From positions 26,598,001-26,662,000 of the forward strand of contig CM022671.1 of assembly GCA_012295275.1 (NCBI GenBank): a stretch of 64,000 nucleotides of DNA. The letters run 5' to 3'. The translations under genes were made by a program, and so were the position numbers. This document shows, one piece after another, positions 20,401 through 48,582 of this stretch. This DNA is from Chrysomallon squamiferum. Its lineage: Eukaryota; Animalia; Mollusca. Each line of letters opens with the position of its first letter. The first letter of the stretch is position 1. The notes beneath the pieces were generated by a model, which was given only the letters and a program-made list of their open reading frames with translations, did not search any database and was not told the DNA's origin.

Positions 20401-20574
20401 ATTCTGAAGGTTTTAAAGAAGAGTATTCATCATATAATAGTTCTGTTAAATTAATCAACATATGCGTTAAGTCTTTATCTTGTTTTTTTTAGTTTGTTGA
20501 CAAATATCTGCACCTAATTTTTTCCACTATGCTGTTAGAGGTTTTCGCATTGTGACCTTTGACCCTGTGTTTCG

Positions 20575-20761
20575 CTAGCCCACAACTTCGAGATATTCGG
20601 TGGATCCTCCGATGTCCACGCTGCTCAGAAGGGGCTGGTTTTCAGAACTCTCCCCACCCCCCTCCTCTGTCTGGGTGAAACGGGTCACCTCCTGGTGAGA
20701 TTTGTGGAATGTCGGTCTGTCTCCTGGTGTTTCTGTCCAGCACTGCAGCATCAGCTGATAG
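20575..20761 (-). CDS. Met-like terminal exon 26 (kinase end and tail)
   Basis: tgtag|[18 protein letters not shown]...[25 protein letters not shown]. Confidence 0.92.
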
Positions 20762-23700
20762 CTACAACAGCAAAATAATCTTTATTAAAGCATGAGAGAA
20801 TGTTTGGAGTCATATTTTAATATAAAAGTGTTTGTAAGCCTTTTTGTAACACGTTCATGGGTCACTCTTACTGATTAGCAGCATGGGAATTATATATTTA
20901 CACCTTCCCATAGACAGGACAACACAAAGCTGACAAAAACATGATCTCTGATAAACGACTGGTGGAATTGACAGAAGCTAAGAATGACTGATTTCTGATT
21001 ATTAAAATACAGTAATTTTCTAACCTAAGTTTATCTTAGAACTACAATTTATCACTTCATTTATGATAATGTTACAATTCTGATCTTGGATTTTATAACA
21101 GTTTTTTTTTATATAAGCTTCAGTTATCATCAGATACATCTACAAAAAGACTTAATTTTAATTAAGTGATAAAAACTTTATGTAACAATAAATAAGTAAA
21201 TAAACAAAAAGGCATATTTATAACTTGAGAAAATAGTGACTTTTAAATTCACAGATAAAAAAACAATTAATTATATGAAAAATTCATGCAAAAGTTGATG
21301 GAATTTTTATTTCTTATGATAAAACTCGACTTACATATTCTCAGGGCACTGTTTAGGCTTCCTCATTCTCTTTCCACTTTTAAGATAACTCTTCAAGTCT
21401 CCACTGTCAACATCTGGATATGGAGTTACTCCCCTTGTCATCAGTTCCCACAGAACAATGCCAAATGACCACTAAAGAAATAAAAAGTTTAATAATTCAT
21501 TAAATATGAAAAACATAATAACCATGGAATAACAAAGATAAATATATTAATAAATTGATAATCAGTTTCTGATAGAAACTGGTTCACATAGGACATTATT
21601 ATTATTCATTTTAATCTTTTTAAACACTATTTTTATCCATTCCATTTGTTGTCTTTCCACAATACTTTCACTTCTAAAAGCAAAAGGTAACAAAGTGTTT
21701 TGTAAAGCAGTCTCACCACATCAGACTGTGATGAAAACTCAAAGTTCTCCAGTGTTTCCAGTGCCATCCACTTGTACAAGTCCTTCACTGTGCTGTCTGC
21801 AGAGAAGAAGAAATCTCTAGAAAACAGGCTGCTGGTGATTCCATAATCTGTCAGGTGCACAGTCTTGTCCTCCATCACTCTGATAATAATATCAGCAGTA
21901 ATGATGATGATGATAATGATAAATATGATGATGATGATGATGATGATTATAGTAATAATAAAAATAAATAAATTAGGACGAGAATGATAATAACAAATAA
22001 TAATAATAATATTGTTATTAACATATGCAAATGTGATTTATTATTAAAAATCTTTTTTTAATTTTTTTGTAAAATTTTAAATTTATACAAGAAGGATACA
22101 GATATAAGTAAAACAAACAAACGTACATGCAGTTTCGTGCAGACAGATTTCTGTGTACAATCTTAGCCTCTGTGAGGTAAACCATGCCCTCAGCCACCTG
22201 TCTGCCAAAGTCCAGTAACTCCATTACAGTTATTTCCTGCAAACACAAAACATGAATAAAATTAAACACTTACTAGAGTGTGTAAGTAACTCATTAAAAT
22301 CAATAACTAAAAAAAGATAAATAAAATTAAGTTAACGTAACGTACAACGAAATAATTACTAATATTTATTAACTTAGTGTATTTTTATTGAAATAATTTG
22401 TAAATCTCTAGTGAATTAAACACAATTCTGAGTTAGAGATTTCCAAATTATTTCTAAAATTTATCTAACTACATTTTGTTGTTTTAGGTAATGTCAAATT
22501 CTAAGCTTGTTGGAATATAAATATTTTGATGTTATAAAAAGCATTGAATGTATTTGAGCATTTTCTTTCTCATATTACATGCATACGCATACATACAAAA
22601 ACACACACACACACATTCACATTCAACACATACACACAATTGTGTTCTTTGACAAAAATGCACAGATTAAGGTAATCATCCAAATATCAGCATCAAAAAT
22701 GATCTGCTGTGTTCACATACTTTAGAAGGTTCTCTGATGTAACTTTTGAGATCTTCGGTTGCCATGAACGGCATGATGATCATGGGGTCCTCACTGGTGG
22801 TGACACACACTCCAACCACAGACAGGATGTGTCTGTGCTGAAGATTCTTTAATGTAGCAGTTTCTTGTAGAAACGTCTGCATGGCTTCAGCCTCTGCGTT
22901 CTTACCTGATGAAGGAAAACAATAAATCTTTATCTGTTTACTACTCACTCTATGAATTTCCTAAACTGAGCATGATTTGTTCTTTTTGGACAGGATTCCA
23001 TAATTTTTTTATTAAAAAATGTTTTGGGAATCACAGCACAAGTAAACAATATTTTCTTATGTTAAAATTTTGACTATGGCGACAAAAGATTCATAAAAAT
23101 GGCATGTAGAAACATTTAATCTGTTATTATATCATTAAAAGTAAAACTCACTGATGAAAATTAATAGTTCTACACATGTATCTACTTAAAGTATGGAAGA
23201 CTGTTTTTGACAACATATTTAAAGTATGCAGCTCTCTATCACACAACTTACAGTTTAGTGTTTTAAGAGCCACTTGCACAGGTTTGTCTTCTCCACTGCG
23301 TTGATACTGGGCTTTATACACGGCTCCAAAATGGCCTGAAAAATTACATGTTGAAATAATTAATCATCAGGATAAAATATATAATTACAAACAAAAAACA
23401 TTACAGTATGAATTGGGTTTATCACTTACAAAGAATTCAAAATGGTTACTATAAAATCTACCATTTAATTTATAGATGAATAATAAATGATTGTGATATA
23501 GCGTTAGATACAAATATTTCTGTTCAAATGGAAAAACATATATCCTCTCTTTTTCTCATATGTCTGTGCATTCATACAACACTAGTATGAATGTATCAAT
23601 ATTAACAGATTAGATCAAAGCAGTTCTAATCAATGGAAGTAAACCAGAGAAATTACATACTGCAGAGTCCTCATTTCAGTAATCAGCATTGAATCAACAT

Positions 23701-26700
23701 ATGGCTGGAAAATGACAGCGTGGATTATCAAGGGCTCACTGTATAAACAAACAGCAGTCTGTGATTTTTACCTTTTCCTATAAGTTCTCCGATGTCCAGC
23801 CTGCTCCTGGGTATCAACATGGAGCTGATGCTGTGTCTGACAGCAGTGTCCTCAAATTTACCTAGCAGCTCAGCAATGTACGGGCCAGAATCTGAAAACA
23901 ATAATAAAACAAACAATTTGTAAAAAATAATAATAAAGAGAAAGTTTCATCTGAAGCAAAGAAATAAAAACCACTGAAATAAAAATAACCAAAAATCTGA
24001 ATACAATAATAAAACAATTATTTTTACAGAATTTATAGAGAGAATGGTATGTCAGAGTTTAATAACCTATTGCATGCTGTCAACAGTCAGTGTATTATGT
24101 TCAGATAAATATATTTAGATGTTTGAGAAAGGAACCAGAAGATAACAAAAACTATATATCATACTGAAATATTCTAATCAGAATTTGCCAATATAATTTT
24201 ATTTAGGATGAACATATAAAGCAAACAATGAGTGATAGATAGTTAATAATCCAAACTTTACCTTTATCATCCAGGATCTGTCCATTCATGTCAGCTTTGA
24301 CCGAGACGTTATTCATCCCAATCTCTTCCTCTTCCTTCTTTCCTTCGTAATCTTTCAGCACATCAGGAATGTAGTTTTCGCTTGGTCCATGTTTGCGGTG
24401 GCGTCGAATCACGCAGATGGTGAGAAGGATTATGATGGCCAGGATGGGCAGCACCACTCCCAGAATAACACCAAGTGCAATAGGCTTGTCCGAGCTGGTA
24501 ACTTCGTAGTACTGAAGATACCCTACATCTGCCTTCAGATTGCCTATATGTACCTGGTGACAAACAGTACAAACATTTACATATAAGCATACAAATATAG
24601 CCAGAGCAGCATGATAGCCACTCAAGGGACGAAGCAAACTTGGGTGTCATACAGAGTTAAAACAATAAAATTATTCTGGAGAAACATAAAGATGAATGTC
24701 ACAGACAAGTTGTTGTCATATTCCAATGCCTGTGACAGTATGTAGTATCAGAAATCTAGGTAAACCAATAACTTTTAAACAGCATACAACAGTACAAAAA
24801 TAGTATTCTCAAAAGGAAGATGATATAAATGGAAACACATTAAAAAAAAATGTCAGATATTTAATTCAGATAAATATAATGCTATGATATCAGTTTCTGC
24901 TTTGAAAGCAGTTTGTCAAATCATTTTACATCAATGTCTGGCTGTTCTGAAGATTTTGATATGAATGTAAAAATGTTAATTAGATAGATCACAATGCATT
25001 AGGTCATGAATATACACACTGCAATAGGTCATGAATATATATACACTGCAATACATGATGAATATAAACTTACCTCTACTACAGCCTTTCCCATGTTGTC
25101 CATGCCAGCAGGCTGCTCTGGAGGTTTACATGTGATGGCTGTGTCAGTGGCAGCAGGGTTCTCACACAGACTGAGTCCAACATACACCTTAACATTGGAA
25201 ATGAGTGGATTCACTGTGCGGAAACGACCCTGTGTAAGAGAACGTAGCAGTCTGCATTAACAACACAAAAGAATAATATATAATCCATCTCTACACTGCA
25301 GTGAGTATAATATAACATACACTGGTAATAGATGGTGCAGTTTCAATAACAGCAGAGAAAGATATGAAGACACAGTCAGACACAGATAAAAAGATTGGGT
25401 GTGTTTGTAGTCTACGTATGTAGTGGTGTACTAGAAAGGGAGCCTGTGTTTTTTATTTCTTTTTAAACTTAGAATTGTAGAGACAGCATGAAAGGATGAA
25501 AGTTTTTAACCATCTAATGTATCATTATTAAAGAAAATAAGAAAAAACAATAAGAAAAATGTTCTGTTAATTAATCTAATTAAACTACCATATTACACTA
25601 TCAGAGCAAGAAAGCATAGATGGAGTCTTAATAATGGGTAGAAATATTGTGACACATCTAAATTCAACATTACATACCTGAATGGACAACCAGTCATCTT
25701 TGACAAACTTCTTTATTCTGTTGTCTCCTGGGAAAGAATATATATCTGGATCAGGGTAGTACAGGATTGGACCAAATATTGTATCATGGGAAATGTTCTT
25801 CAGAGACATGACACCATCCATGTTGAAGCCATAGTGCACTTCCAGTGGACTGGTCTCAGTGACGTTCACTCCTGGGTTGATGCCAGGTACAGGACACTGC
25901 AACTCAATTTCTTGTTCAACTGTACATGCCTGTTAGTTAATAGATTTAAAAAATAGAAAATAATGTTTAAAACTTTATTTCTGTTACTTTAAGGATCTAC
26001 AACAACAACAACAGTAACAGTAACAATAACAATAATAACAACAAAATAATATTAAAAATTATATTTCTATTCTTTTCTGTATCTTTAATTTAAAATAATA
26101 ATTATAATAATAATAATTTTTTTATTTTTTAAAAACCCACACCAAACAAACAACTAAAGATATGCCTAAATTAAACTAATGGATAACTTAACAGAAGAGT
26201 ACTCATTTTTTCAGTTGGTAGGTTGATGTTATGTTTTATTTCTTAAAATTAATTTCTAAAATTGAAATTAAATTCATTTGTCACAAACTGCTCAGACATT
26301 TACGACAAATTAAAGTCATCATTATTACTATTCAACATATGAAGTTTTGGCTGGTGACTTACAGTTTTGTAAAACTTGCCACCGTATGTAGTGAAGAATT
26401 CTGGTTTCTGAATCAAGTCAAGTCTTTGTCCCACAACTGTGATGGTTGTTCCACCACTGTCAAAAAATTCAAATTAATGAGAATGAGGTTATATGCATCA
26501 GTTAAAGATATATGCGATACAGATTTTATGATTTCAAAGATAAAAACTAATATGGAATTTTAATGAATGTGTTGTATCAATATTTTACTGAGTATTTTTG
26601 AAAATGACATATTAATTAACACATTTTGTGTGAATATTAATATACTTCAGCAATATTTCAGACAAATATTAATATAATTATCTGTAGAATACAGAGATAC

Positions 26701-27915
26701 CAAGGCATATTCAAAATGAAGAATAAAGTCACACTCAGTATCATTTTCTAACAGTATGCCTATCAAGAAAAACCTGAATCATAACTGGTCCAAGATTGAA
26801 AAGGAAGAAAAAAAGAAGTAAACTTCAGATCTAACATAGTTAATTTAAAGCCAATAAAATAATATTAATTTTCCAAAGATATTTTCTAAGAAATGTTGCT
26901 GTTATCTTAATTCATACCTGAGTATACTTCTCTTGGGCTCTATCATGGTGATTGCTGGGTCATCATGGTAAGTGAAACGTTCTGGTACAAGTTTCTTCAG
27001 TCCTCCAAAACTGACCTCCACATCCACATCATCTGTACTGGCTGTTTGTCTGGATGTCCGACATTCCAGAGTTGTCTTGTTTGATCTGAATTAACATATA
27101 ATAATTAATAAAATATCAGTGATTTTTAAACATATTTTTCTAAGATGCAAGAAAAAAAAAAAAAAAATGCTCCTATTGTTACTGTTTATTTAGTTGTTTT
27201 ATCTTTGTAATTTGAATCAAAGAAATTTTTGTTTATTAGTTATCATCAAATCAGCACATACCATACAGGAACAAAATACACAAAGGTTAAATAAAGCAAA
27301 CAAACACATCTCATTCTGGTTACTTACTTAATGAACTCACAGACCTCTCCTCCCACAAAAACCATTCTTTGACTTCCTGTGTTCATGTTGCTACCATGGA
27401 TACCAATGACAGTACCTCCAGATCGGGGGCCCTTCTTAGGTGTTATAAATTTAACTTGTGGATCCTGCAATTAAAATGCAATTTGTTTTTTTACTTCAAA
27501 TTTCTGAAGACAGAATATGAATAAAATTATAAATATATCAATAAATAAATAAAAATAAATATTGGCAGGTTATTATTGGAGCTCTAAGTTCTAACCTTCA
27601 TTATTATGTGTTATTAAGTGTTATTATGTTGCTTCTTACTGAACAGGTGTTTACTGGATCATTCTGACCCTCGTTATTATGTGACATGTGTACTTGAAGT
27701 TTGCAGGTTTTCAACAGCAAAAAACTCACCACAAAGTAGAAAGGTGTGTCTGATTCAGCAGAGTATCTCCCGTTGACCAGCACAACAATATTTCCTGACT
27801 TCTCATCCTGCGATATGTCTGTCTCACATGTAAACCTGGAACAGCAGAAAGAGTTATAAATATCCTCATCAAACAATATCTCAGTATTTGAAATAAACTG
27901 CATCTGTGTATGTGT

Positions 27916-27953
<38 letters not shown>

Positions 27954-30457
27954 AATATATTTACAATTTAATACTCAGTGTATGTGACTGTGCAAAAACA
28001 AATACCACAAATATCCAGGTAAACAAAAAAATAAAAAAATTCAATATAAAATACAGTATACACATTAAAGCATTAATGGGTTTTACTGCTACATCTTCCC
28101 ATTAGGAAGGACTCTGTTTTAAATTAATATTATCACAGATGTGATATTTTAAAACTTGCAGTGAAAACATGCTTCTGAAATGAGAGAAACAACATACTTG
28201 GATGAGGGTTGATAGTGTTCTCTGTGAATGGTGCACTTAACCCCAGCCACAGACACATTGCCAGTGATATCTGTGTACTTTTTACCCAGGTTGATTCCAG
28301 TCACTGAAATGTTGGTCTTTCCATGAATTGGTCCAGTTGTTGGGCTGAACTGAAAATTATTAACAGATCAATGAATAACAAACAATGTCCTTCATTTTAT
28401 ATATGCATGTAAGAATGCATGCACTGCTTTCTTTTGTTTATATATAAACACATACATTTGCATATATAAAAATGTAACACACACACATACAAATAAACTC
28501 AGAAATAATAGGAAAAATAAAGACAGCCAACAAATAAATGATGCACAATTTACTATTTAGTACAGTACATTTTAAATGCGACATCATGAGATATATATGA
28601 ATTTATTTTCTTATGAAAATTTCAAATTGTTATTCTTCTTCATATTATTATAACTTTACTAGAGTTATCACTAGTACTACTACTACTACTACTGCTATTG
28701 CTGCTGATACTACTGCTATTACTACTATTACTACCACTACTACTTCTGTCATTACTGCTACTGCAACCACTACTAATGCAATTATCATCATTTATTTACT
28801 TCACCTACCCTAAGTATCTGTGGGTTAGGACAAGGCGCAGACCTGTCCAGCCACTGTTTGATGCAGTATCTCTGCAGAGTGCACTGATTGTCACACCAGC
28901 CACACTGGTATTCCTTGTCCATGCTCAGACACTTACCACAGTTTGTCACCATCAGAGGACACTTGTAGATTCTCACTGTCAAATACAAATAAGTATTTTC
29001 AAACGTGTAATATAAGTAATTATTTTTTAAGTTTGTAATACATATGATTATTTCCATGGGTGTAATACATATTGTTATTTTTAGAAATATATTAGATATA
29101 ATTACTTTCATGTGTGTAATACATATTGTTATGTTTGTCTGTAACATATAATTACTTCAATGTGTATAATACATATATTTACTTTCATGTATGAGATACA
29201 TATAATTACTTTAATGTGTGAAATACATATATTTATTTTCATGTATGTAATACATATATAAATCTATAAAAATAACTTCAATAAATCTTTTGCCATGAAC
29301 AATTTTATTAATGTATTAGAAGCTCAGCTCTCTATTATACTGTTACATAAAAAGTAGGTTTTCTTGATTTATATGTCAGACAGAAATATTAAATAAATAA
29401 AGATTATGGGTTGTAAGACAAGTGTGATTAATGAAAACACACAATGGATAAAACCCAAGAGATGTCTACAACCAAAGAAATAAAAAAATGAGATTTGGTC
29501 ATACAGAGGTTGATATGATTAATCAGTCCAAGAATGTCTTTACCTACATCAATCACAGTTAACGTTCCAATGAACATTATTTACGTTGGTTAGCCTAAGC
29601 CTTTCAAATGCATGTTCTGGCAGACAAACACAAGAATAAAATGCATATAAATTTCTTGGTATTGCCAGATCATTATTACCTTTAATGTTAGAAGGGTTCC
29701 CCAGTGGAAAACCATTCACTCCAGTCAGCACTTTGAAGAAAGCTGTCACAAATGGCTGTTCTAAGTCATCTGATTCAAACTAAATAAAAAAAAAAAAAGA
29801 AAGAAAGAATAAAGAATTTAAAATTTAATAGTATGAAACCTCAGAGGTGAAGTAAATGGTATCACATTACATTCGCACACACATAACACAGTAGGAAGCT
29901 CAGTGTAAAACCACCCATGTTGTCTGATGTAATATAAATTACAGTTAACAATGTCATGAAATATTAATAGTCAAATTTTTGACAGTAATTAAATCTATGA
30001 TTAGTTATGAGACTTAAAATGGATTTTTTGGTTCAGAATAAATTAAACGAAATACAGTGAATGGTTATATTCATTTTTTGCTCATTTATAACATAAATCT
30101 TACTTTTAATTGTATATCTTTCAACCATTATAAGAAATTAAATGGCTTAAAAAAAAACATTATCATTCTATAGTAACAATATATTAATAAACTGCATTAA
30201 TTCTTACTGCCATATAAAAATTACATTATTTCAGTTATTTGGAGTAAAAATATGTTAAATAACTGACACCTAATTGTGCATTATTAAACAAGTGGATGAA
30301 TCATTAGTTTATACAGCTTACTAAATGTATAAACTAGATGCTTAACCATAATCTGTGGTATATAGAACCAATCACAAAACCACATATAAATAACAAAATA
30401 AATAAATAAAGTAAATAAGTAAATATATACTATATGTAGTGTGTGTTTGGTGGTGTG

Positions 30458-30499
<42 letters not shown>

Positions 30500-33400
30500 G
30501 TGTCTGCATTCACACTCTGATATCTGAAAAATTCCTCAGCTGTATTCTAGAATTAAAATGGAGGAACATTATCAGACAGGTGATACATTTTTTTTTTTTT
30601 TAAAGAGGAGACAGGTGAAATAAATCTGATATAAATTTGAGCATATCAAAGCAGAGCACTGCAGCAGAGCTGGGTGAGAGATATGAAGTAACTGACATCA
30701 GAGGCTGGGTGTGCGTGTGTCTATCTCATCAGACAATCTTACACCACTGCAGCATTTATTTAAAGTTTTCACTTTGATGGGGCAACAGTCGATTGTCTAG
30801 ATAACCAGTGAGGCTAACGTTTTATCTTCATGACAGTGTTGATAGATAATTCTGATCAGGATGTTTGCATTTAGAATGGATAATGGGATAGAATGCGATG
30901 AGAAGATATTTGCATTTAGAACGGATAATGGGTTGAGAAGATATTTACATACAGAATGGATAATGGGATAGAATGCGATGAGAAGATACTTGCATTTAGA
31001 GTGGATAATGGGATATAATGGGTTGAGAAGGTATTTACATTTAGAATGGATAATGGGATAGAATGAGTTGAGAAGATGTTACATTTAGAGTGGATAATGG
31101 GATAGAATGGGTTGAGAAGATGTTACATTTAGAATGGATAATGGGATAGAATGGGTTGAGAAGATGTTACATTTAGAGTGGATAATGGGATAGAATGAGT
31201 TGAGAAGATGTTTGCATTTAGAATGGATAATGGGATAGAATGGGTTGAGAAGATGTTACATTTAGAATGGATAATGGGATAGAATGGGTTGAGAAGATGT
31301 TACATTTAGAATGGATAATGGGATACAATGGGTTGAGAAGATATTTACATACAGAATGGATAATGGGATATAATGGGTTGAGAAGATGTTAAATTTAGAA
31401 TGGATTGAGAAGATATTTACATTTAGAATGGGTTGAGAAGACATTTACATTTAGAATGTACAATGGGATAGTTTAATTAAAATAATTTTTACCTTGACTG
31501 GATTACAGGTGAGACTGGATGAGGTGATGGTTCCAGGAACAATATCAGTTTTTCCAACATAGGTAAACACACATTTCACATTGGAATTCTGATCTCTCTA
31601 CAAAAAGGAATAGATATTAGTGAAACACTTTAATTCTTTCCACGTTCCAAATATCAATGTCTGCACTAAAATTATTATTAAAATAAAAATAAAAGAGCAA
31701 TAGTAATAATAATAAATATAATAACAGAACTAATATAATAATAAAAAATTAATAATAAAGTTATATTCTAAAAGTGAATTAAAACATACAATCTTATTTA
31801 ATAAAATAAAATATCCAAAATGTGTTTTTAATAATATGGTGTCAGATCTTTAATTTCATACACTTAAGATAAAACAAAAATTAAATTAAAAAACTAAACA
31901 AGATGGGCCTTTATTATAAAAGTTACTGCCCTTTTTAACGTACAAACTCAAAAATAAATGTTACAAAATAATAATGTAATTTTGAAAGATTGTCCGATTT
32001 AAATAATAAATTTAAATGTTAATGCTTAACAATCCATATTTAATGTCAAACATTATATGTGTTATTGATGTGATTTGAGAGAAAACCTTGTATCAGAATC
32101 ACAGAAGATTTTATCAGCTATCAGTAAAAGATCATTTAAAAGCACCTTAGAGAGGAAATAACAGACCATAGCTGTTAATAAAACTATAAGGAAAATAGAT
32201 TGGTATGGTCGGTCAACAGACCAATATGCTTCAAGAAAGAACCAGTAGAAAGCATTCTACCCCTCTGTTACATTCTGCATGTTCTGACTAGAATTACTGT
32301 ACTTGTACACACAGCTCAAACTGACCTGCAGGTTTCTCACTCCCACTGCTATCTGTTTTTCCTCTCCAGAGTGAACCAGGATGTCTGTATCTTGTCCAGA
32401 CGCTTCAATTCTTGGACAGATGGCAGCATCGGTAATTCCAAGAGAAGACTACAATTATAAATTTCAACAAAACTTTAACAGTTAAAAAAATAATAGTTAA
32501 TTAAAACAAATAAATTAATAAAATAAAATAAAATAAAATAAAATAAAGTAAACAGAATAAAAGAAATAAATACTGTAGTGAGAAACGTATCTAATCTTAT
32601 CAAAAGAAACAGCCAATCATGTAATGAAATAAAAATTCAAATATACATAATCCTGACAATATTTTTAAAATTTTATTCCATACATTAGTGAACTTGAAGA
32701 CATACAAATAATTTTTAAAATTTTTAAATATTTTAGTTAAAAATAATGTATAGAAATGTTTCTATTTGAAACCAAATTAAAGAACATTCAAACAGACTCT
32801 TTCACTCCTGAAAATAGATACTGAACAATACAGTCTAACTTGTGTATGCACCCTCACACACCCGCACCCACACACACCCCCACCAACCCCCCCACACACA
32901 CACACACCATATACACTTGAAAGCTATATTAAATATGTAAACTGCTCACCTGACAGTTAGAATCGTGTTTCTGACAGGTGTTTGTCTCGTAGCACCATTT
33001 GCACTTGAAATTGCTGCTGGCACAGCTGGTGCAGTTCTCGTGAACTCGACAGTCAAACATTGGCACACTGCGAGTCACTATAGACCTGCCCTGAATGTGG
33101 AAGTGCAGCATCACCTCCTGATGATCTGAAACAGAAATATCACTGTTCTGTTACCTCACACCGTATCATATCAATCAATATTACACTATACACTGTATGA
33201 TATATAATATTTATATCATTTTTTTTTTTACCGTATGTATTTTATCATTTAGTATTAGTTACTATATTGGAACACATCACTGTGATAGATAATCGCATGT
33301 GATCACACATTTTACCAATCCAGATATTAAAATTTCAAGTAAAATAACAGACTGTATAAAAATATATTTTTATTAGGCGTTTACAAATCCTATGATAAAA

Positions 33401-34629
33401 TATAAAGTCATTTAATAATATTAATACATTCTAATGTATAAATAATAAATATAAAACAAACTCATATCAATAAATATTAACATTAAAATTTAAAAAAAAA
33501 TTAAACAATTAAAAAAATAAAAATAAAAATATAAATATAAATATGAAACTGTATCATATATGAATTTAGATACATGTATTTTTTAAAAGACATATAATAT
33601 CAAGTTGAATATTTGCTTTGGACCAAATCTGATTACTTTCAATAAACAATTCTCCTAACTGCAGGACAGTTTTAAGCTTTAAGCAGTCTACAAACTATGA
33701 ACATGTAGAGGAAAGAAGACAGGAAAGCAAGCACACCAAAGCCAAACATCTACCTACTCACCCTTACCCTGAGGAATGCTGGGAAGGTGCTGTTTCTCTG
33801 GCAGAAGGCAGGTGATGGTTTTGTCATGGATGGAAGCAGATGTGTCGTGTTTCTGCTGTCCAGCTTCAAATCGACATTTCAGATCAAGTTTTGACTGATT
33901 CTCTACAGATACTTTCTCAAGTTCAAATGAGATCTGTGAAAATAAAATTTAAAAAATTGATATAATAATAAAATTTGAGGTTTGTAGACCATACAGAAAA
34001 CATGCATTGAAATCTAGTGGTTTATTTCAGATAATAAATATATAATTAAATAATTAAATAAAAAGAAGATCCTGGTAATGAAATGATTTATAAATTAGTT
34101 TTGACAACAATATAAACAAACATCTTTAAAAAAATAAACAAGACTAACAATCACACTGCTCTCTCTTATATGGCTAATAAAATGCTTGGGACTCTCTGTA
34201 GGTGTGTCTGCTTCTCACAGCATAACAAGGAGTTGGTTTTTTTTTCAGGCCTTGGGGTAAATCTGCTTTCCACAGAAATAAAATTTCGAGTGAATATATC
34301 AGCTTATTACAGGAAAAAGGTAAATGCATTAGGTTCCACTCATTTTTTTTTGGCCAATCATTATGGGTCCTATGAGTACAAACATTCTGAGAAACTGTTT
34401 CTATGGCCACTGACCTGTCCTCCAGACTTTCCATTCTGCAGACTCTCATAGCTCAGGGTGTCTGGTTGGATGTTGGTGATGCGGGCACATGATTGGTCAG
34501 CTGATGGCAGCCAGTGAGGATGTACTGCCGATGTCTCACACCTGTCTCTTGTAGAGCACCTTGCACAGGAGAGAATTAAAATTCTTAAATCATTCATTTT
34601 AATAAAAATATACAATAACATAAATGAAA

Positions 34630-34660
<31 letters not shown>

Positions 34661-37600
34661 AAATAAAAATAAAATAAATGATCAACAAAAATAAAACAAC
34701 AACAAAAATGAAATTCTTAGTTCTTGATAAATAAATCAATTGTACTTTTGTTAAAGAAAATAATAAAATTTTAGAAAGTGCTAAGAACATTTTTTTATTT
34801 CCATTTCTTATCATTTCAGACTTTTACCATCAGCCTTTAAAGACTTCCTTAAGAAAAAATCTATGCAAACATTTATGGTATTGATATTAACAAATGTTAT
34901 ATATATAAACACACAAACATACACACAAAGTGATGACATTCTGACACAATTTGTGCTTCTTGTTTGCCAAACTAGTATGTTTTCTGCCAAATACGTTTCA
35001 CAAAATCTTTCTATGTGTATCTAAATAGGTTAGATGATATTTATGATCTTTAGTTAGTTTGAAAAATAAGTCAAATGAAGAGTTACTCTTTCCTGATAAG
35101 CAACAAATTATCTGTTATACATATACATCTTCCTACACACTACAATAAATAGATACCACAATATTTAATACATCTGGCACTAGATGAATTACTGAAAACC
35201 AGTTTGTATAAATAAGAAAGTAAATATTATAAAGATCTAGCTAATAAATTTGTAAACATATACAAGATGCAATCTTAATATCATGAAATGGATACAAATA
35301 TTTGGCAAAACCTTTCTTCTATCTCAGAATTTATTCTGAAATACCTTTCTGTGAAAACTTACCTGTTTTGCATTACACACCACCCACATGTGTTGTCTGC
35401 TTTGGCAACACAATCAGAACAAGTCAGATGTTTCTCACAGTGCAGTATTGATATCAGTGACACCTGGAACAAAATCAGTTTTAAATACAGTGTGAAATTG
35501 TTAAAAGCCAACAAACAGGAATGCTTAAAACATTTTTCAGGTAATTTCTGAGAAAATTTCACAATTATAAGAAGTAAACTTATCAACCATGAAAATTTCA
35601 AACAAACATTTTAAAAATATAATTTATTGACTATCACAAGTTACACTCAAGCAGAAACACATACAAAAAACACTCACTTTTTCTGTTTCTCTCACTTGTA
35701 TACACATAGATACACATACATACAAACAAACAGCAGATGAATAAATATTTAAATAGTATCTGTGTAAACAGTAAAAAGAAAAACACTGATACCTTTGATG
35801 GAGTTAGAACTATTAGTTTCTGTAAATCTTTTGCAGGCCACAATTCTTTCACCGGTCCCCTGATATCAACCTTTAAACTGGACAAGATGTTTGCTGCATC
35901 TTTAGTAAGTACAACCTAAAATTAAATTCAAATTTTTATTATGCTGAATAAATCGTAAACCAATCAAAAAATATTAATCATAATTATCATTACAATGTGT
36001 CAGTTATTTTTATTCTACTGTAATCAGTGACAGTGACAGAAGAAAAGGAAGCCACTACCACCTTTCTGTTAGCTACTTGTATTTTTAATGTTTTATAGCA
36101 AAAGAAATATACCCTCTCATAAACATAAAAACACAGTAATGATAAACCACAGAATATTGTTGTGAAACAGTCTAAAGGGACCATCGACAAAGTCTGATCC
36201 TGTGAACCACCATGCTTTAGGCCAACTTATTTTTTCAAGATAATGTAATAACATATATAATTTGTTACAGTAGTAATATTTATTACTGCACCAATATACC
36301 AAAAATAAATGCTGGTGTATCATGATCTCAGTGTCTGCTACTGTTTCAGTCCAGATGGTAAAGAAAAATGGTAAGGAATTGCCATGTCACTCTCAATTAA
36401 TGTATAAATAGAGATAATGATATGTCATAATAAATTACCAAGACAACAGTTCCACATAATTTACAAACAGCTTAATTATTTCGTGAGTTACTGAAAGAAC
36501 AATACCAGTTAACATACAAAAATAACTGATAACGTCATAACAAATTACCACCTAATGTGAAAATAGTGTAATTTTATATAAAAAACAAACAAATTCCATG
36601 ACAACTATCAGCTAATCTATAAATAGTGTAATTTCATAATTATAAATAACTACATCAGCTAATGTAGAAATACTGTAATTCTACAATGAGTTACCTTGAC
36701 GAGAGTACCAGCCGATGTACCAACGTAACCAATCGTGTTTTCCCCCTCCTGCCGAACAAGAATGGACATTGCTGATGTATCAGGAAGAACAAGTTTGGGT
36801 GTGGCTGTCACTGGCTCTGTTCCTTCTATGGAGCTGTAGGCTTCAGCAACATCAGTCTGGCCACAGTAGTTCACAGCAGCTGACTACAGTGGAAAAACAC
36901 AGAGCATGTCACGCATTTTGAATCAAATATACCCAAATAATCAAGTCACTGAACAGGGATAAAATGCTGTACTGTAAAGCAGTTAAAGAAAAGATGTCAT
37001 AATTAAGTAAATAAATTAACACTACAGGAACAGATCTTTGCCTTTAAATGAACTGATACTCAACCAATAAATATCTAATGACATATATAACATTGTTTGT
37101 TAAAAAAAAAAAAAAAAGCCACAAATACAAGTTTAAAATAATATTTCAGAATTTGTCACAATGAATTCTAAATTTCAGCATCAGAAAATATTTTAAATGT
37201 CTGTATACATCATTCTGTGGTATTTTTTCTTTACTTTTTATATAATTTATTATTTAATTTCTTTAATTATTTATTTTATATTTATTTATTTATTTATTTA
37301 TTATTTTTAAAATATTTGGGTTTATTGTTATACATGGATCATTGTGTGTCTGCAGTTCACCATATGAATCAAGCCATACTTGATCAGGCCAACAACAAAT
37401 GGTCTCAAAGAACAAACCTCCTAGGTATTGGGGAATCTGACTATAAGATCATACGGTCGCAGTCTACAAGAGAACACAGCTGTTGCAGTGATAAGATTAA
37501 AGACAACCCTTGAGGGTACTTGAATTGAAAAAGTTTAATTTTCAGAACCATCAAAAAAGAGAAAACAAGACATCTGTTGTAAGGCTTCCGTCCAAAGAGT

Positions 37601-37859
37601 TCTTAAGTTGCAGTTTTCATTATCTCATATATGGATGACATTCATATTAAATATCGTGTGCAGGATTTAAAAACAAGGTCTTTAGTTTTAAGAAAGAAAA
37701 AGAATATAATAGTCCATGTATGACGAATGAACATTAGTGAGTTATATTATGCTTATAGTTATACAAATTTCAGTTCTATAAGAAATAAAGATGATAGCAC
37801 TGAATAATTGATATAAAAGTTTATGTACATATGCATGTATATATGCTTGTGTGTGTATA

Positions 37860-37903
<44 letters not shown>

Positions 37904-39346: not shown

Positions 39347-39411
<65 letters not shown>

Positions 39412-40971: not shown

Positions 40972-41006
<35 letters not shown>

Positions 41007-41431
41007 ATGCACATGCACATGCATGTGAGTGGGCACCACAGAGACCAGTGTGAACTATCAGTGCTGTGTCTGCCTCATTCTGACTGTATTCACTGACTTA
41101 TCATCCAACCATCTGAGCTACTGGAGAGTTCAGAAAATTACTTTTTTTTTTCTTTTTCTCCTCCTCTCTTGTAAAAGTAATGAAGTAAAGAAAGTGTTTT
41201 TAAATCATAAACATTGCACTTTTCTTTCTTTTTACTTCTTTCAAAAACAGAACTGAAAAACAGATGTATACTAAGGTAGACAGAGTTGAAGAGAGAAATA
41301 ATAATTGAGAGGGAAAGATTATTCAAAAACAGATTAGAACTTATAATGAAGCCCTCCATAATAATTAGGAAAATATTCTTTATTTAAAATACATTATTTA
41401 TTTTCAAGTATGAAGGATTTTGTTTTTTGTG

Positions 41432-41479
<48 letters not shown>

Positions 41480-44400
41480 GTAGACATACAGATACTTTAA
41501 ATTCAAATTGCATGTGTGTATATGTGTGTGTGTGTGTTTGTGTATATATGTATATGTATGTATGTACATATGCATTTTTATTTGATTGCCTATGTATATA
41601 TGTCTGTTGAAGGTATATATATATGTATGAAACTATGTATTGATTATTTTATATTATTTTATAAAGATACACCCCTATTACAACACATTGTAAAGTGTAG
41701 GTATATGTCACACAAGTTGTGTTCTTAACCATAGACAGGTCAGGTACGTGTACATACATCAAACACATCAAATACATACATGTATGTACAGCTGGGAAAG
41801 GTTAACATTCTAAACGCTTCACAGTTATGCAAATCTTTCCTATTCTTTTCATAAAACATATATTACTCACATTGTTCTTTCCACTTTGGTGGAAATAAGC
41901 AATCAGATTATTTTCTTTATGTGCAAAATGAAAACAATCTGTATACCTTCTAGGCACTCAACATTGTTACACTTCTGGACACTGAGACAAAACAATGTAC
42001 AGATTATGTAAAATATACCTGCCTCTATTACATATATGTGTTGTGTGTGTGTTGGTTTGTGTATCTGTGTTTATATGTGTATATGTTATATACATATTGT
42101 ATTTATTTAATTATGTATTTGTAAAAGGTTCATGAGAATGGTAATTAAAAGTTTTATTTATAATATATAACACACACACACATATATATATATCATGATA
42201 TATATATATATATCATGTTTCATAATTATAAATTAAAAACAGTTACTTTTGGATTCTTCCTATAAAAAAAACAACAACATTTTTTTTGTGAAATGTAATC
42301 ATTATTTAAAAGAAGAAAAATTTCATGTTTAAAAATAGAAAAATTAACAAGAGAACAAAAGAAAGCTGTCTTGTACACCCATATTTTTATCACATAAATG
42401 ATAAAGTCTGTGTTTTCAATGTGTAATCTCTGCTTACATCTCACAAATACTTGATAAGCAAAAACTAGTTAAAAGAAATGGCCAAGGTGCACAACTTAAG
42501 AAAGTTTGTTATTGTAACAATATATAGTAACAGTTATTGTGTTTATGTATATATATATATATGGAATGTCATTAGAGCAATATCAGATATTATTGCATAA
42601 TATAAAAGGGGATATATTGCAGTCCCTAACAGGGATGTACTTATTTTTTTAAAAAGACATTTTTGTATTGGGTAAAAGGGAAATATTACATTTTGTAATG
42701 TGATATACAGCATTTTATAAAAGGAATAGATTATGTTATATAAAAGGGATATACTGCATTTTGTAAAAGAGTATAATACAACTTATAAAATAGAATATAT
42801 TTTGTAAAAGCATTTATTACATTTTGTAAAAGGGATATATTGTTTTGTAAAAATGGTTATACTGCATTTTGAAATGATAAAAATAGTTTATTTTGTGGAC
42901 ACAAGTTTATATTAACACTGAAATTGGTGGGTTTGGAAACATAGTATTTGTCATTTATCAATTGTCCATTAATGTCTGGACTAAAAGCTAATTATTTAAT
43001 CATATTAAAATTATAATAAGTTTTTAATATAATTTCCTCAACCTAAACTCCTGATTTCTTTGTTCAAATATACTTGTCATAAGTTGAGTACATATCAGTT
43101 TAGACATTCAGAACTAAAACCTTCAGTAATATCAGAATACTGTTCCTGTGAGGTAACTATTTATAATTGAGTAATACTATCATCGTTTGTTACAAAATAT
43201 CTATTGTTAATATACCTTTAAATATTGATACAATATCATAATTAAAAAAAGTCTTGAATGAAAGAAATTTTTTTTTTTTTTATACTGAGATCTTTCATCT
43301 TTTTATCAGAAATATTTAATTACCACTTTTCTTTCATCACTTCATAATTCTAAAAGATACTGTTATCATACTGGCTCTTGTTTGCATTTTTAATGATGAT
43401 GATAATTACCAAAAAAAAAAAAAAAAAAAAAAAAAAAATGAAGAAGAAGAAGAAAAAAAAAAAGAAAAAAAGAAAAATAAAATAAAATAAATTATAGTAA
43501 CAATAAATTAAAAAGAATTCAAAATAAAATGCAGAGCACAAAACCATCTGGGGGAATTTAGCCCAGACAATCCTTTTTCCACCTCAGTGCCATCTAGTGT
43601 AGCAGTATGATGGAAGTGACAACGAGGAATGTGCAGAAAACAGATTACTTGGACTAGGGTTTCTTTCTGTTGTGTTTGTGCACTTAATGACAAATATCGC
43701 AGCATGTGTCATAGACAGAGATCAGACAATGAAGCGGAGAGGATGTTTCAAGTGAGGAAACACGATAGACTGGATCTCTTCCAAACCTATCTGTCTTCAA
43801 CTCATCTACTGTTATCACAGTTCATGCTCCTCCTCGCTGATAAAGCATGTGTATTAAAGTAAAAGATTTCCTGATACCAGTTCACTTTTTTCTTCTTTTT
43901 TTTTAATTTTTTTTTTAAAACAAAACCTTTTTAATTATTTTCTAAAAAACACAAAAAAATCCAGCCACATTTATAACATGAAGCAGGTGATATTTTTATC
44001 CAGCTAAAATGTTTTTGTTTGAAGTTAAGATAAGAAAGGTTTAATGTAATGTAGCCAAACTTGTTTATGTTTAAAACTTCCATGCATTCCTCTTTTATCT
44101 CCTTCATTTCTTTCTTCTTTCTTTTTTTTACAAATATATTTTACTTTTAACATCTTTAATAAAGTTTAACAGAACTATAGTGATAATTCAGGAAAAAAAG
44201 AAAAAAGGAGAGGAAGTTTTAACTTGATAATGCAAATGCAGTTAACCTTTAACTGTAAACTACGTATTTTATGAGTTTATGCTACATTAACGCAATGTTC
44301 TTTTATTGCAAATTCATAACTTTAATGACTTTCAAAAAACTATCTAATGTCAGAATTCTTTGGAGCCAAAGATAGATTACCGCCAAACCTAACCAATAAC

Positions 44401-45768
44401 CAAATTTCTGCTAATGTACAATACAATGACTATTCATAAATACACCATCAGAGCTAATAAAAGAAAACCCGAAAAATGAAAATATATTACTCAGTTTGGA
44501 TCCACTTTACCAAAACTGTTTATAATAAAAGTTCTCAGCCATCCAGTTATTTGTCATCAATGAAAATCATCTCATACCAAAAAATTATTACCATTAAACA
44601 GTATTTTACATACATGGATATACACATGGACACACACACACACACAGACACATACACACACTTTTATTCACTTGCATTTTGATAAAATCACACAGTAAGA
44701 ACTAAGAACATCTAAACCTACCGTGGGGACACAGGTATGCTTCTGTGTAAAATGTTCTGGCCCAATGTAGCCATTTCCATGGAAACACTTTTCCACAGCT
44801 GTGTTGAACACACTGTTGATGTCCGCCATTTTGAACACACAGAGAGCAGAGGCTCCGCCAGGCTGGAACGAGGTCTTCACATTCTGTGAGAACACAGCAT
44901 AAAGATTTCCCTCCTCAACATCAACATCGTGCACGATGCTGTACATGTCACCGGTAATTCCTTCACAAACAAAAGACATTTCAACGTAGGACTGGAAATA
45001 GGTGTCATTCTGACAGATTCGACTTATTTTCGACACATATTTCGTTGAACCAGGTTTCTCCTTCTGGACGGAAATGAAGTACACAAAGCTGTCGTATGAA
45101 AACCCATCAACATATCTGATTTTGAAACTCATCCGGTACTTCTCGAGGACACTCTTCTTTGTGGCTCCATTCGCATCTCGGAACATGAACTCCAGGTTAT
45201 CGAGTCTGCGACTGCTCAAACTTGGAACCATGTCTCGGTACGCTTTTTTCCCATAGCCACTGTATGTGGCAGCGATGTACACCGCAGATTCGTGTTCTAT
45301 ACTAGGAGCTATGAACATTACACATGAAGAATCATCATTAGGAACTATCGGCCTCTGAATAAATTTAACCAAATTTGTTATATTTTTCAAAGAAACCTTT
45401 TGGCAGTGGCCATGGAACAGTGTAGAACATAAAATCAAAGAGTTTTCTTTTTCATCGATTACGATTCCTTTTGTTTTGCTTTCGGTCATCCTTTTCTCTA
45501 TCTCAGGTGGACATTCCATTACTGGCGGAGGACACTCGGGATTGTCTTCCCTTGGTCCAACAGAGGCACTCTGAATCAAAGAAAGTTCGGGTGAAAGTTT
45601 GTGCAGTCTGTTGGTAGCACCAAGAAATATGTTACCGGTTTTGGTGTGGACAACTAAATGCTGAAAGCGGTTATCTCCTGGGTCGCGGAATGTGTGCAGC
45701 ACTTTCATGGGAGACACCAGACACAACAGGGACAGCAACAAAACACATTCTTTTACCAGGGCAGCCAT
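20575..45768 (-). CDS. Plexin-ectodomain / MET-RON-family receptor tyrosine (pseudo)kinase (Met-like, HGF-receptor-like protein), 26 coding exons, about 1596 aa
   Basis: Hand-assembled exons 45768-44722, 36883-36695, 35915-35793, 35463-35363, 34559-34415, 33933-33762, 33125-32950, 32448-32326, 31597-31493, 29779-29680, 28975-28809, 28349-28198, 27835-27730, 27464-27328, 27085-26918, 26456-26363, 25929-25678, 25229-25074, 24553-24262, 23891-23772, 23335-23252, 22905-22721, 22236-22127, 21879-21717, 21471-21335, 20761-20575. All GT-AG, total 4791 nt, one uninterrupted frame: signal-Sema-3xPSI/6xIPT-TM-TyrK. Confidence 0.93.
20856..20965. mobile_element. Degenerate SINE fragment (Nin/Deu-domain-like), last intron of the Met-like gene
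   Basis: catgggtcactcttactgattagcagcatggga...ttcccatagacaggacaacaca resembles, from memory, the molluscan SINE core; related decayed copies at about 35080-35180 and, inverted, 58141-58170. Confidence 0.5.
21335..21471 (-). CDS. Met-like exon 25 (kinase C-lobe)
   Basis: tttag|[45 protein letters not shown]|gtaagt. Confidence 0.94.
21717..21879 (-). CDS. Met-like exon 24 (DYG, activation loop)
   Basis: atcag|[54 protein letters not shown]|gtgaga. Confidence 0.94.
22127..22236 (-). CDS. Met-like exon 23 (catalytic loop HRNLSARN)
   Basis: tgcag|[36 protein letters not shown]|gtacgt. Confidence 0.94.
22721..22905 (-). CDS. Met-like exon 22 (alphaC, hinge)
   Basis: atcag|[33 protein letters not shown]...[18 protein letters not shown]|gtatgt. 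Confidence 0.92.
23252..23335 (-). CDS. Met-like exon 21 (Gly loop, VALK)
   Basis: ttcag|[28 protein letters not shown]|gtaagt. Confidence 0.93.
23772..23891 (-). CDS. Met-like exon 20 (juxtamembrane, kinase start)
   Basis: ttcag|[39 protein letters not shown]|gtaaaa. Confidence 0.9.
24262..24553 (-). CDS. Met-like exon 19 (transmembrane and juxtamembrane)
   Basis: accag|[15 protein letters not shown]...[31 protein letters not shown]...DDK|gtaaag. Confidence 0.93.
25074..25229 (-). CDS. Met-like exon 18 (IPT6)
   Basis: cacag|[23 protein letters not shown]...ITCKPPEQP...AVVE|gtaagt. Confidence 0.9.
25678..25929 (-). CDS. Met-like exon 17 (IPT5 end, IPT6 start)
   Basis: aacag|[15 protein letters not shown]...YGFNMDGV...[10 protein letters not shown]...LSIQ|gtatgt. 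Confidence 0.92.
26363..26456 (-). CDS. Met-like exon 16 (IPT5)
   Basis: gacag|[31 protein letters not shown]|gtaagt. Confidence 0.9.
26918..27085 (-). CDS. Met-like exon 15 (IPT4 end, IPT5 start)
   Basis: ttcag|[11 protein letters not shown]...[19 protein letters not shown]|gtatga. Confidence 0.92.
27328..27464 (-). CDS. Met-like exon 14 (IPT4)
   Basis: tgcag|[45 protein letters not shown]|gtaagt. Confidence 0.92.
27730..27835 (-). CDS. Met-like exon 13 (IPT3 end)
   Basis: tccag|[35 protein letters not shown]|gtgagt. Confidence 0.9.
28198..28349 (-). CDS. Met-like exon 12 (IPT3)
   Basis: ttcag|[40 protein letters not shown]...|gtatgt. Confidence 0.92.
28809..28975 (-). CDS. Met-like exon 11 (PSI3)
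   Basis: gacag|[55 protein letters not shown]|gtaggt. Confidence 0.93.
29680..29779 (-). CDS. Met-like exon 10 (IPT2 end)
   Basis: tttag|[33 protein letters not shown]|gtaata. Confidence 0.85.
30860..31471. repeat. 44-45-bp minisatellite, about 14 copies
   Basis: Unit TTTAGAATGGATAATGGGATAGAATGGGTTGAGAAGATGTTACA in tandem, with a few truncated units. Confidence 0.95.
31493..31597 (-). CDS. Met-like exon 9 (IPT2)
   Basis: tgtag|[35 protein letters not shown]|gtaaaa. Confidence 0.87.
32326..32448 (-). CDS. Met-like exon 8 (IPT2 start)
   Basis: tgtag|[41 protein letters not shown]|gtcagt. Confidence 0.88.
32950..33125 (-). CDS. Met-like exon 7 (PSI2)
   Basis: ttcag|HQEVMLHF...[37 protein letters not shown]|gtgagc. 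Confidence 0.92.
33762..33933 (-). CDS. Met-like exon 6 (IPT1)
   Basis: cacag|[23 protein letters not shown]...[19 protein letters not shown]|gtgagt. Confidence 0.87.
34415..34559 (-). CDS. Met-like exon 5 (PSI1 end, IPT1 start)
   Basis: gcaag|[33 protein letters not shown]...GGQ|gtcagt. Confidence 0.88.
35080..35180. mobile_element. Second, more decayed copy of the same SINE-like core
   Basis: gttactctttcctgataagcaacaa...atcttcctacacac...gataccacaa aligns loosely with 20856-20965. Confidence 0.35.
35363..35463 (-). CDS. Met-like exon 4 (PSI1)
   Basis: tccag|[34 protein letters not shown]|gtaagt. Confidence 0.92.
35793..35915 (-). CDS. Met-like exon 3 (end of Sema)
   Basis: tttag|[41 protein letters not shown]|gtatca. 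Confidence 0.85.
36695..36883 (-). CDS. Met-like exon 2 (Sema)
   Basis: tgtag|SAAVNYCG...[14 protein letters not shown]|gtaact. Confidence 0.9.
39350..39409. repeat. (GA)n microsatellite
   Basis: Seen directly. Confidence 0.95.
44722..45768 (-). CDS. Met-like gene coding exon 1: signal peptide plus most of the Sema domain
   Basis: [20 protein letters not shown] signal; [90 protein letters not shown]; acceptor at 45790, donor ACG|gtaggt. Confidence 0.95.
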
Positions 45769-48112: not shown

Positions 48113-48146
<34 letters not shown>

Positions 48147-48532
48147 TATATAATAATAATAAAACATTTAAATTAAAAAATAAAGATTAGCCAGTAAATC
48201 TAATTCATTTAACTTTTTAACATTATAACAACTTTAAAAAAAAAATTCTAATTACAAAAAAACAAATATTCAAAAGAAATATTGTAAGTAATAAATTTAA
48301 AAAAAAAATAGATTCACTGAAGTTCAGTAAACATCCTCTTTAAAAAAAAATGAGGAAAAAGAAAAAATGTTTCTTGAACATCGTTAGAAAACTACATCAA
48401 AGGAAAGAGTACTGATGAAATAAATATGAAAGAGAAATATATAAAGATGAAGGATGAGCATAAACTAGATCAATAGTCAGAGCATTGCTTGAGGATTTGT
48501 GAGTACCAAATCAGTTTTCTTGTTGTTGCTCT

Positions 48533-48582
<50 letters not shown>
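48533..48582. repeat. (GAT)n microsatellite
   Basis: Seen directly. Confidence 0.95.

What the first reader, a model, noticed from the sequence alone, without database searches (positions are those of the whole stretch)
20575..45768. Chimeric receptor: complete plexin ectodomain wired to a MET-family kinase domain
Seen: one continuous spliced frame encodes Sema-PSI1-IPT1-PSI2-IPT2-PSI3-IPT3-6, a TM helix and a tyrosine kinase fold. Established: 3 PSI + 6 IPT is the class-A plexin layout, whose cytoplasmic part is normally a split RasGAP with an RBD. Vertebrate MET/RON have only 1 PSI + 4 IPT, and MET has an RKKR furin site in Sema, which I do not see here. Inference: this is an intermediate between plexins and MET, possibly a semaphorin-responsive RTK-like receptor. 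I recall invertebrate 'Met-like proteins' with this layout in comparative literature, so the architecture alone may not be new; its function is not established to my knowledge.
Basis: partly seen in the sequence, partly recalled or inferred. Interest (0 to 1): 0.85.

Follow-up and report, generated by a model that had tools for sequence, protein, structure and literature searches.

The report
Mollusc plexin receptor with dead kinase
This mollusc gene joins the outer part of a plexin (a cell-guidance receptor) to a MET-type kinase, a combination already described, but every mollusc version checked lacks one of the two aspartates that kinases need, so it is predicted to be catalytically crippled and likely signals through a partner enzyme.

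Summary
The gene is real: 26 GT-AG exons on the minus strand (45768-20575), 1594 aa (1596 with an alternative donor), 84% identical to a Gigantopelta protein. It has Sema, 3 PSI, 6 IPT, one TM helix and a MET-family kinase fold. This layout is the published Met-LP class (Junqueira Alves 2019); the paper's Aplysia Met-LP1 is in the same clade.

The catalytic loop reads HRN, not HRD; DFG is DYG; the activation-loop YY is gone. Of 39 mollusc-clade sequences, 37 have Asn there and the two scallops with Asp have lost the DFG Asp, so 0 of 39 keep both. All 8 Met-LP-type proteins outside that clade keep both, as do the Mets. The glycine loop, beta3 Lys and Mg-binding Asn survive, a HER3-like pattern. 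I found no report of this in the papers searched.

Best reading: a pseudokinase co-receptor, likely semaphorin-binding, phosphorylated in trans (perhaps by Met) on a C-terminal TEYLEV motif. Ligand, partner and activity are untested. A new variant of a known kind.

The parts
20575..45768 (-). Met-LP gene, 26 coding exons, 1594 aa (1596 with alternative exon 6 donor)
   Evidence: 84% to P0002
44722..45768 (-). exon 1: signal peptide and first 349 aa (Sema domain)
   Evidence: best PDB hit Drosophila PlexA 9e-45, MET 8e-18
36695..36883 (-). exon 2, Sema
35793..35915 (-). exon 3, Sema
35363..35463 (-). exon 4, end of Sema and first half of PSI1
34415..34559 (-). exon 5, PSI1/IPT1
33768..33933 (-). 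exon 6, IPT1; alternative donor at 33762 adds Gly-Lys
32950..33125 (-). exon 7, IPT1/PSI2
32326..32448 (-). exon 8, PSI2/IPT2
31493..31597 (-). exon 9, IPT2
29680..29779 (-). exon 10, IPT2
   Evidence: joint 28975/29680
28809..28975 (-). exon 11, PSI3
28198..28349 (-). exon 12, IPT3
   Evidence: joint 28349/28809
27730..27835 (-). exon 13, IPT3
27328..27464 (-). exon 14, IPT4
26918..27085 (-). exon 15, IPT4/IPT5
26363..26456 (-). exon 16, IPT5
25678..25929 (-). exon 17, IPT5/IPT6
25074..25229 (-). exon 18, IPT6
   Evidence: X2 contig joins it to exon 19
24262..24553 (-). exon 19: end of IPT6, TM helix (about aa 1193-1218), juxtamembrane segment
23772..23891 (-). exon 20: conserved pre-kinase helix (PYIxELL, Y1271) and kinase start
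23252..23335 (-). exon 21: glycine loop and beta3 Lys1331
22721..22905 (-). exon 22: alphaC (Glu1349 present in this copy)
22127..22236 (-). exon 23: catalytic loop HRNLSARN
22147..22149 (-). AAT codon: Asn1426 in place of the catalytic Asp
21717..21879 (-). exon 24: DYG (for DFG) and an activation loop without the MET YY pair
21335..21471 (-). exon 25: kinase C-lobe
20575..20761 (-). exon 26: kinase end, tail with ENQPLL and TEYLEV (20584-20601), stop

Best explanation
This is the mollusc Met-LP receptor, a full plexin-A-type ectodomain on a MET-family kinase domain whose catalytic Asp is Asn, so it is predicted to be a pseudokinase that likely acts as a co-receptor: a ligand (likely a semaphorin) would cluster it with an active kinase (possibly its paralog Met), which would phosphorylate its tail. 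Shown: gene structure, domain layout, clade membership, and loss of HRD-Asp or DFG-Asp in all mollusc sequences examined. Inferred from kinase biochemistry: little or no catalysis, with ATP-Mg binding probably kept as in HER3. Inferred by analogy: plexin-like ring and semaphorin binding; trans-phosphorylation of Y1589 in TEYLEV, which fits the recalled ITSM consensus TxYxxV and would recruit an SH2 protein such as SHP2. My odds: impaired catalysis 0.85; signalling through a partner kinase 0.5; semaphorin as ligand 0.5; Met as partner 0.3.
For: Catalytic loop: 37 of 39 mollusc-clade sequences have Asn, and the 2 with Asp (scallops) read GFG for DFG. 8 of 8 Met-LP-type proteins outside the clade keep HRD and DFG; 21 of 21 Met-clade kinases keep the Asp. 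One change on the tree explains the loss; the clade has 100/99 support. Nucleotide-pocket residues persist in 36 sequences: glycine-loop G2 and G3 36/36, beta3 Lys 34/36, catalytic-loop Asn 36/36, DFG Asp 29/36, while alphaC Glu is kept in only 7/36. That is the HER3 pattern described in PMC4718504. The activation-loop Arg, Asp and YY and the P+1 Pro are degenerate. The YxN Grb2-type tail site is in 14 of 15 Mets and 5 of 8 intact Met-LP types but 2 of 39 mollusc Met-LPs; 20 of 39 end in an [TSQ]xYxxV/I motif. TM, juxtamembrane and kinase stay conserved (mean identity 0.74, 0.58, 0.51), so the domain is under selection. In vertebrates MET is activated by Sema4D through plexin-B1 and trans-phosphorylates kinase-dead HER3 (PMC11728269). 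The Sema domain is closer to plexin-A than to MET.
Against: No activity, ligand or partner was measured. This copy still has alphaC Glu, beta3 Lys and the DFG Asp, and HER3 with the same Asn shows weak autophosphorylation. The tail has no tyrosine at all in 9 of 39 sequences (heterodont and unionid bivalves and their unnamed kin), and the motif is absent in 19 of 39, so tail docking is not universal. Sema is the least conserved ectodomain part (0.35), which does not argue for one conserved ligand. I could not check the semaphorin-contact residues. The Met partnership rests on analogy and same-chromosome linkage only.
Confidence: 0.5

Rival explanations
1. A decoy or brake: it binds semaphorin (or pairs with plexin-A or Met) without signalling, and removes ligand or partner by endocytosis.
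For: Dead catalytic site. A loose acidic-dileucine-like pattern in 27 of 39 tails (ENQPLL here) and YLEV also fits the recalled YxxPhi sorting motif. The dileucine-like element persists in bivalves that have lost every tail tyrosine.
Against: A pure decoy would not need a conserved ATP pocket and juxtamembrane helix. My dileucine pattern is loose and also hit 2 of 15 Mets and 2 of 8 intact Met-LP types.
Confidence: 0.25
2. A weakly active, atypical tyrosine kinase receptor that autophosphorylates on ligand-driven dimerisation, as HER3 and JAK2 JH2 do at low level.
For: This copy keeps the glycine loop, beta3 Lys, alphaC Glu, catalytic-loop Asn and DFG Asp. Asn-type pseudokinases can have trace activity (PMC4718504).
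Against: Family-wide decay of alphaC Glu (7/36), the HRD Arg (17/36) and the DFG Asp (Gly in 4, Glu in 3) shows that selection on catalysis has relaxed. Kinase identity Gigantopelta-Dreissena is 0.40 for Met-LP against 0.77 for Met.
Confidence: 0.15
3. A pseudokinase receptor for a non-semaphorin ligand (an HGF-like or other secreted protein), with the plexin stalk acting only as a spacer.
For: The Sema domain is divergent. The MET family has shifted ligand before (PMC6374515 discussion).
Against: No furin site, and an intact ten-domain plexin-A layout, the layout that couples semaphorin dimers to membrane-proximal dimerisation in plexin-A (PMC4980550).
Confidence: 0.08
4. Artefact: two adjacent genes (a plexin and a kinase) read as one, or a decaying pseudogene.
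For: No single listed RNA contig spans all of exon 20, and one contig is 2 nt short of the model between exons 19 and 17.
Against: TM and juxtamembrane lie in one exon; the introns around it are 370-520 nt; the frame is open throughout. RNA contigs run from the ectodomain past the exon 19 donor and from before exon 21 to the stop. More than 30 orthologs carry both parts in one protein.
Confidence: 0.02

Closest known systems
Met-LP RTKs (Met-like with plexin ectodomain; Junqueira Alves et al. 2019, PMC6374515)
   Same: Complete plexin ectodomain plus intracellular tyrosine kinase domain, in a mollusc. P0018 is XP_012936725, the paper's Aplysia Met-LP1, and groups with the window protein.
   Different: The paper treats Met-LPs as RTKs, built its tree on Sema+PSI only, and its main text has no word on pseudo, inactive, dead, HRD or aspartate. 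The mollusc branch lacks the catalytic Asp; annelid, brachiopod, hemichordate and sea-star versions keep it.
MET / RON receptor tyrosine kinases
   Same: Kinase fold and family (best PDB hits RON and MET; MET-family clade 99/93-97); Sema and IPT3-6 homologous.
   Different: MET has 1 PSI and 4 IPT, HRD, DFG, activation-loop YY and a YxN tail site; vertebrate MET has a Sema furin site. Molluscs keep a separate, intact Met gene (P0053, P0136).
Class A plexins
   Same: Ten-domain ectodomain, colinear with plexin-A1/A2/A4.
   Different: No GAP/RBD cytoplasmic region; a kinase fold instead.
HER3/ErbB3 pseudokinase
   Same: Same catalytic-loop reading HRNL(A/S)ARN, often DYG, kept beta3 Lys and Mg ligands, alphaC Glu mostly lost.
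   Different: Convergent: ErbB3 sequences fall far from the Met-LP clade. Different ectodomain; one tail tyrosine rather than many.

Membership tests
Met-LP | Complete plexin ectodomain (Sema, 3 PSI, 6 IPT) | tested here: met
   ortholog model
Met-LP | Single TM followed by a tyrosine kinase domain in one protein | tested here: met
Met-LP | Orthology to a named Met-LP | tested here: met
   P0018 = XP_012936725; same clade in kinase and ectodomain trees
Met (MET/RON) proper | Truncated ectodomain, 1 PSI + 4 IPT | tested here: not met
   3 PSI + 6 IPT
Met (MET/RON) proper | Kinase inside the Met clade | tested here: not met
   Outside the Met clade in the best trees; grouping with mollusc Mets rejected p=0.005, with all protostome Mets not rejected p=0.068
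Active receptor tyrosine kinase | HRD catalytic aspartate | tested here: not met
   HRN, codon AAT
Active receptor tyrosine kinase | beta3 Lys, alphaC Glu, DFG Asp | tested here: met
   K1331, E1349, D1444 present in this copy; Glu kept in only 7 of 36 relatives
Pseudokinase (sequence definition, PMC4718504) | Lacks at least one of beta3 Lys, HRD Asp, DFG Asp | tested here: met
   39 of 39 mollusc-clade sequences
Pseudokinase (functional) | No or trace phosphotransfer; nucleotide binding class | not testable with these tools
   needs an assay
Class A plexin | Split GAP with RBD | tested here: not met
   Pfam finds a kinase and no plexin cytoplasmic family
Class A plexin | Semaphorin binding and ring-shaped ectodomain | not tested
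   No mollusc semaphorin sequence in hand; the model lacked Sema and had pTM 0.40

The most novel reading that the evidence does not exclude
A Met-LP-type receptor is the ancestral form of the whole MET family (MET arose from it by an internal deletion between PSI1 and PSI3), and the mollusc ancestor turned its Met-LP into a HER3-like pseudokinase that couples semaphorins to its paralog Met: one protein doing the job of the vertebrate plexin-B1/MET complex.
Probability: 0.2. Interest if true: 0.8.

Novelty: new variant of a known kind. Interest (0 to 1): 0.52.

Why it matters
Few receptor pseudokinase lineages are known, and this one comes with a natural control: the same receptor keeps its catalytic residues in annelid, brachiopod, hemichordate and sea-star proteins and lost them once, at the base of the mollusc clade. 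That gives a matched active/dead pair for asking how an RTK becomes a scaffold. It also corrects the working label of mollusc Met-LP as an RTK. The kinase tree reopens whether Met-LP arose twice, as published, or is the ancestral MET-family layout.

Tried and rejected
No whole genome was held for the window, so no in-genome search for Met, plexin-A or semaphorins was possible. The intact Met gene is not in the window: tblastn of two mollusc Mets hits only the Met-LP exons.

Complex prediction of the Gigantopelta Met kinase with the Met-LP kinase region gave no verdict (score 0.00, alignments not used, controls not folded); it is evidence neither way.

The protein atlas did not answer. Earlier scan findings: none by words, sequence or place.

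A-to-I editing of the AAT codon to restore Asp was considered. The X1 RNA contig keeps model spacing through exon 23 and its 20 substitutions are all accounted for by other pieces (by arithmetic, the exon 23 piece itself was not printed). Nine unnamed orthologs on 4.9-7.9 kb contigs also read Asn. Contigs drop rare variants, so low-level editing is not excluded.

An ErbB3 origin of the kinase was rejected (quick tree). Plexin residues that contact semaphorin could not be checked: the paper was not held and a mutant-name search found nothing. The ectodomain tree has one true plexin and no outgroup, so it cannot order events. Alignment A4 wrongly held a Met-LP fragment and was replaced by A5.
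Full report
Gene model. Minus-strand ORF pieces between 45768 and 20575 were ordered with the closest database protein, Gigantopelta aegis P0002, 81% identical over exon 1. Choosing splice sites gave 26 exons, 25 GT-AG introns, 4785 nt and 1594 aa, with 1344 of 1595 columns identical to P0002. A second donor at exon 6 gives 1596 aa, matching Gigantopelta isoform X1 versus X2.

Domains. Pfam on three orthologs finds Sema, PSI, TIG and PK_Tyr in all three, with TIG_2 and TIG_plexin. P0002 aligns in one stretch to full plexin-A4, A1 and A2 ectodomains (E 4e-145 to 1e-127), and its kinase best matches RON and MET. The window's own exon 1 is closer to Drosophila PlexA (9e-45) than to MET (8e-18). 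Three PSI motifs are present and no furin site. The fold was run on the scallop ortholog P0124, which covers aa 484-1594: mean pLDDT 80.6, pTM 0.40, six IPT sandwiches, TM helix, kinase; top matches are plexin-A ectodomains, then MET and RON kinases. Domain boundaries used in my scripts were set by hand from these results.

Transcription. Five runs of two studies hold exon 1 words, four on record as RNA. Four were laid on 20000-32600. In X1, a 3186-nt contig has pieces on exons 19, 17, 15, 12 and 11 and 43 more bases past the exon 19 donor. A 1087-nt contig has exons 22, 24 and 26 at model spacing, with room for exon 21 and 27 bases of exon 20. X2 joins exons 18-19 and 25-26 directly. Against: no listed contig spans all of exon 20; the joins into exon 20 are inferred from offsets; the long contig is 2 nt short between exons 19 and 17, unexplained; these are contigs, not reads.

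Known class. PMC6374515 (abstract, outline, passages, first of two parts of supplement 1, one search of four supplements; its large PDF supplement could not be read and may bear on what the authors saw in the kinase) defines Met-LP in Lophotrochozoa and Echinodermata, proposes two independent origins from a Sema+PSI tree, and leaves the ligand open. Its Aplysia Met-LP1 accession is P0018. PMC10084454 (one passage) repeats this.

The kinase is degenerate. The window reads GKGHFG, VALK, alphaC Glu, [11 protein letters not shown] and an activation loop with FFF where MET has YY. In 39 mollusc-clade sequences including the window (gastropods, bivalves, cephalopods, unnamed kin), 37 have Asn at the catalytic position and two scallops have HGD with GFG. 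Left out: P0042 (second Mya model), P0043, P0047 and P0405 (models broken or lacking the catalytic loop), and within-cluster near-duplicates such as P0124 (also HGD/GFG). Controls: 21 of 21 Met-clade kinases have Asp. Eight Met-LP-type proteins outside the clade have HRD and DFG: annelid Paralvinella P0131, brachiopod Lingula P0444 (two PSI motifs by my pattern), hemichordate Glandiceps P0298, sea star Patiria P0323, unnamed P0045, P0293 and partial P0099, and Potamilus P0132 (the pattern miscalled P0298's DFG and P0105's loop, read correctly). In 36 sequences the nucleotide pocket is largely kept (Lys 34, loop Asn 36, DFG Asp 29, glycines G2 and G3 36) while alphaC Glu (7) and the HRD Arg (17) are not. 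PMC4718504 (passages) gives the sequence definition of a pseudokinase and describes the same pattern for HER3, which binds ATP-Mg and has weak activity.

Phylogeny. Kinase trees (LG+G4, 38 and 46 rows) give a MET-family clade, a mollusc pseudokinase clade at 100/99, joined to the annelid-type intact Met-LPs at 95-97/91-94, and a Met clade of moderate support (83-89/89) that excludes them. One change explains the loss of catalytic residues. Grouping Met-LP with mollusc Mets is rejected (p 0.005); with all protostome Mets it is not (p 0.068). One clade of lophotrochozoan and ambulacrarian Met-LP kinases is not found but not rejected (p 0.17-0.22). Met's four IPTs map best to IPT3-6 and its PSI starts like PSI1 and has the length of PSI3, which fits an internal deletion. 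The ectodomain tree agrees on a lophotrochozoan Met-LP clade (99) and a Met clade (99) but has one plexin and no root. Met and Met-LP lie on records of identical length in 7 chromosome-level assemblies of 4 genera, and plexin-A and Met-LP do so in 3 Octopus assemblies but not in Argonauta. This is linkage inferred from lengths, not coordinates, and the assemblies are not independent.

Tail. The YxN site is in 14 of 15 Mets, 5 of 8 intact Met-LP types and 2 of 39 mollusc Met-LPs; 20 of 39 end in [TSQ]xYxxV/I/L/M; 9 have no tail tyrosine; a loose dileucine-like pattern is in 27. The names ITSM, Grb2 site, dileucine and YxxPhi are recalled consensus motifs and come from no call.

Mechanism. Plexin-A ectodomains form a ring that converts semaphorin binding into membrane-proximal dimerisation (PMC4980550, passages). 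MET is activated by Sema4D through plexin-B1 and phosphorylates kinase-dead HER3 (PMC11728269, passages). I therefore read this protein as a pseudokinase co-receptor that needs a partner kinase, with decoy and weak-kinase rivals. None of ligand, partner or activity was tested here.

Novelty. Searches for 'Met-LP', pseudokinase+plexin+mollusc+Met receptor, pseudokinase+kinome+oyster and Met-like+plexin ectodomain+kinase-dead+lophotrochozoa returned no paper noting the catalytic loss, judged from listings and from word searches in PMC6374515, PMC10084454 and PMC8662651 (passages). Subscription journals are not covered. PMC7327498 (passages) gave no plexin-side contact residues. Verdict: known architecture, apparently unreported mollusc-wide pseudokinase variant; interest 0.52.

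Noticed in passing
window about 4750-10160, + strand: 3' part of an LRIG-like gene (LRR cap, Ig domains, TM), tail to tail with Met-LP. The exon at 6926-7213 has LRIG1 as best PDB hit and I-set domains. Vertebrate LRIG1 down-regulates MET and ErbB receptors (recalled); the neighbourhood may be chance.
   Followed up: partly
P0132 (Potamilus streckersoni): A second 3-PSI receptor in one bivalve, with an intact kinase that nests among mollusc Mets and an ectodomain outside both Met and Met-LP clades. Either an independent plexin-Met fusion or a fused gene model.
   Followed up: partly
P0046, P0080, P0445, P0101, P0109: Met-type receptors in spiders, ticks, a horseshoe crab, a nematomorph and a tardigrade; the chelicerate and nematomorph kinases group with protostome Mets. 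The 2019 paper states no Mets are detectable in Ecdysozoa.
   Followed up: partly
P0298, P0444: Met-LP-type proteins in a hemichordate and a brachiopod, groups not surveyed in the 2019 paper's species list.
   Followed up: partly
P0002 and P0053: Gigantopelta Met-LP and Met have RefSeq accessions 19 apart on a record of the same length, a weak hint of close linkage.
   Followed up: no
P0023, P0025, P0124: Scallop Met-LPs have Asp at the catalytic position but Gly for the DFG Asp; on the tree this looks like a reversion inside an Asn clade.
   Followed up: no
P0053, P0136: Gastropod Mets carry their furin-type site near aa 690-700, in the IPT stalk, not in Sema.
   Followed up: no
window 23772-23891 (aa 1267-1277): A pre-kinase helix PYIxELL with Tyr1271 in 34 of 36 sequences is conserved in Met-LPs and poorly aligned in Mets; a candidate regulatory element.
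   Followed up: no
window about 30800-31450: Tandem repeat array in intron 9, seen as repeated peptide text in the ORF list with a strong GC skew.
   Followed up: no
window 45800-64000: No clear coding exons in the GC-filtered ORF list upstream of the start codon.
   Followed up: no
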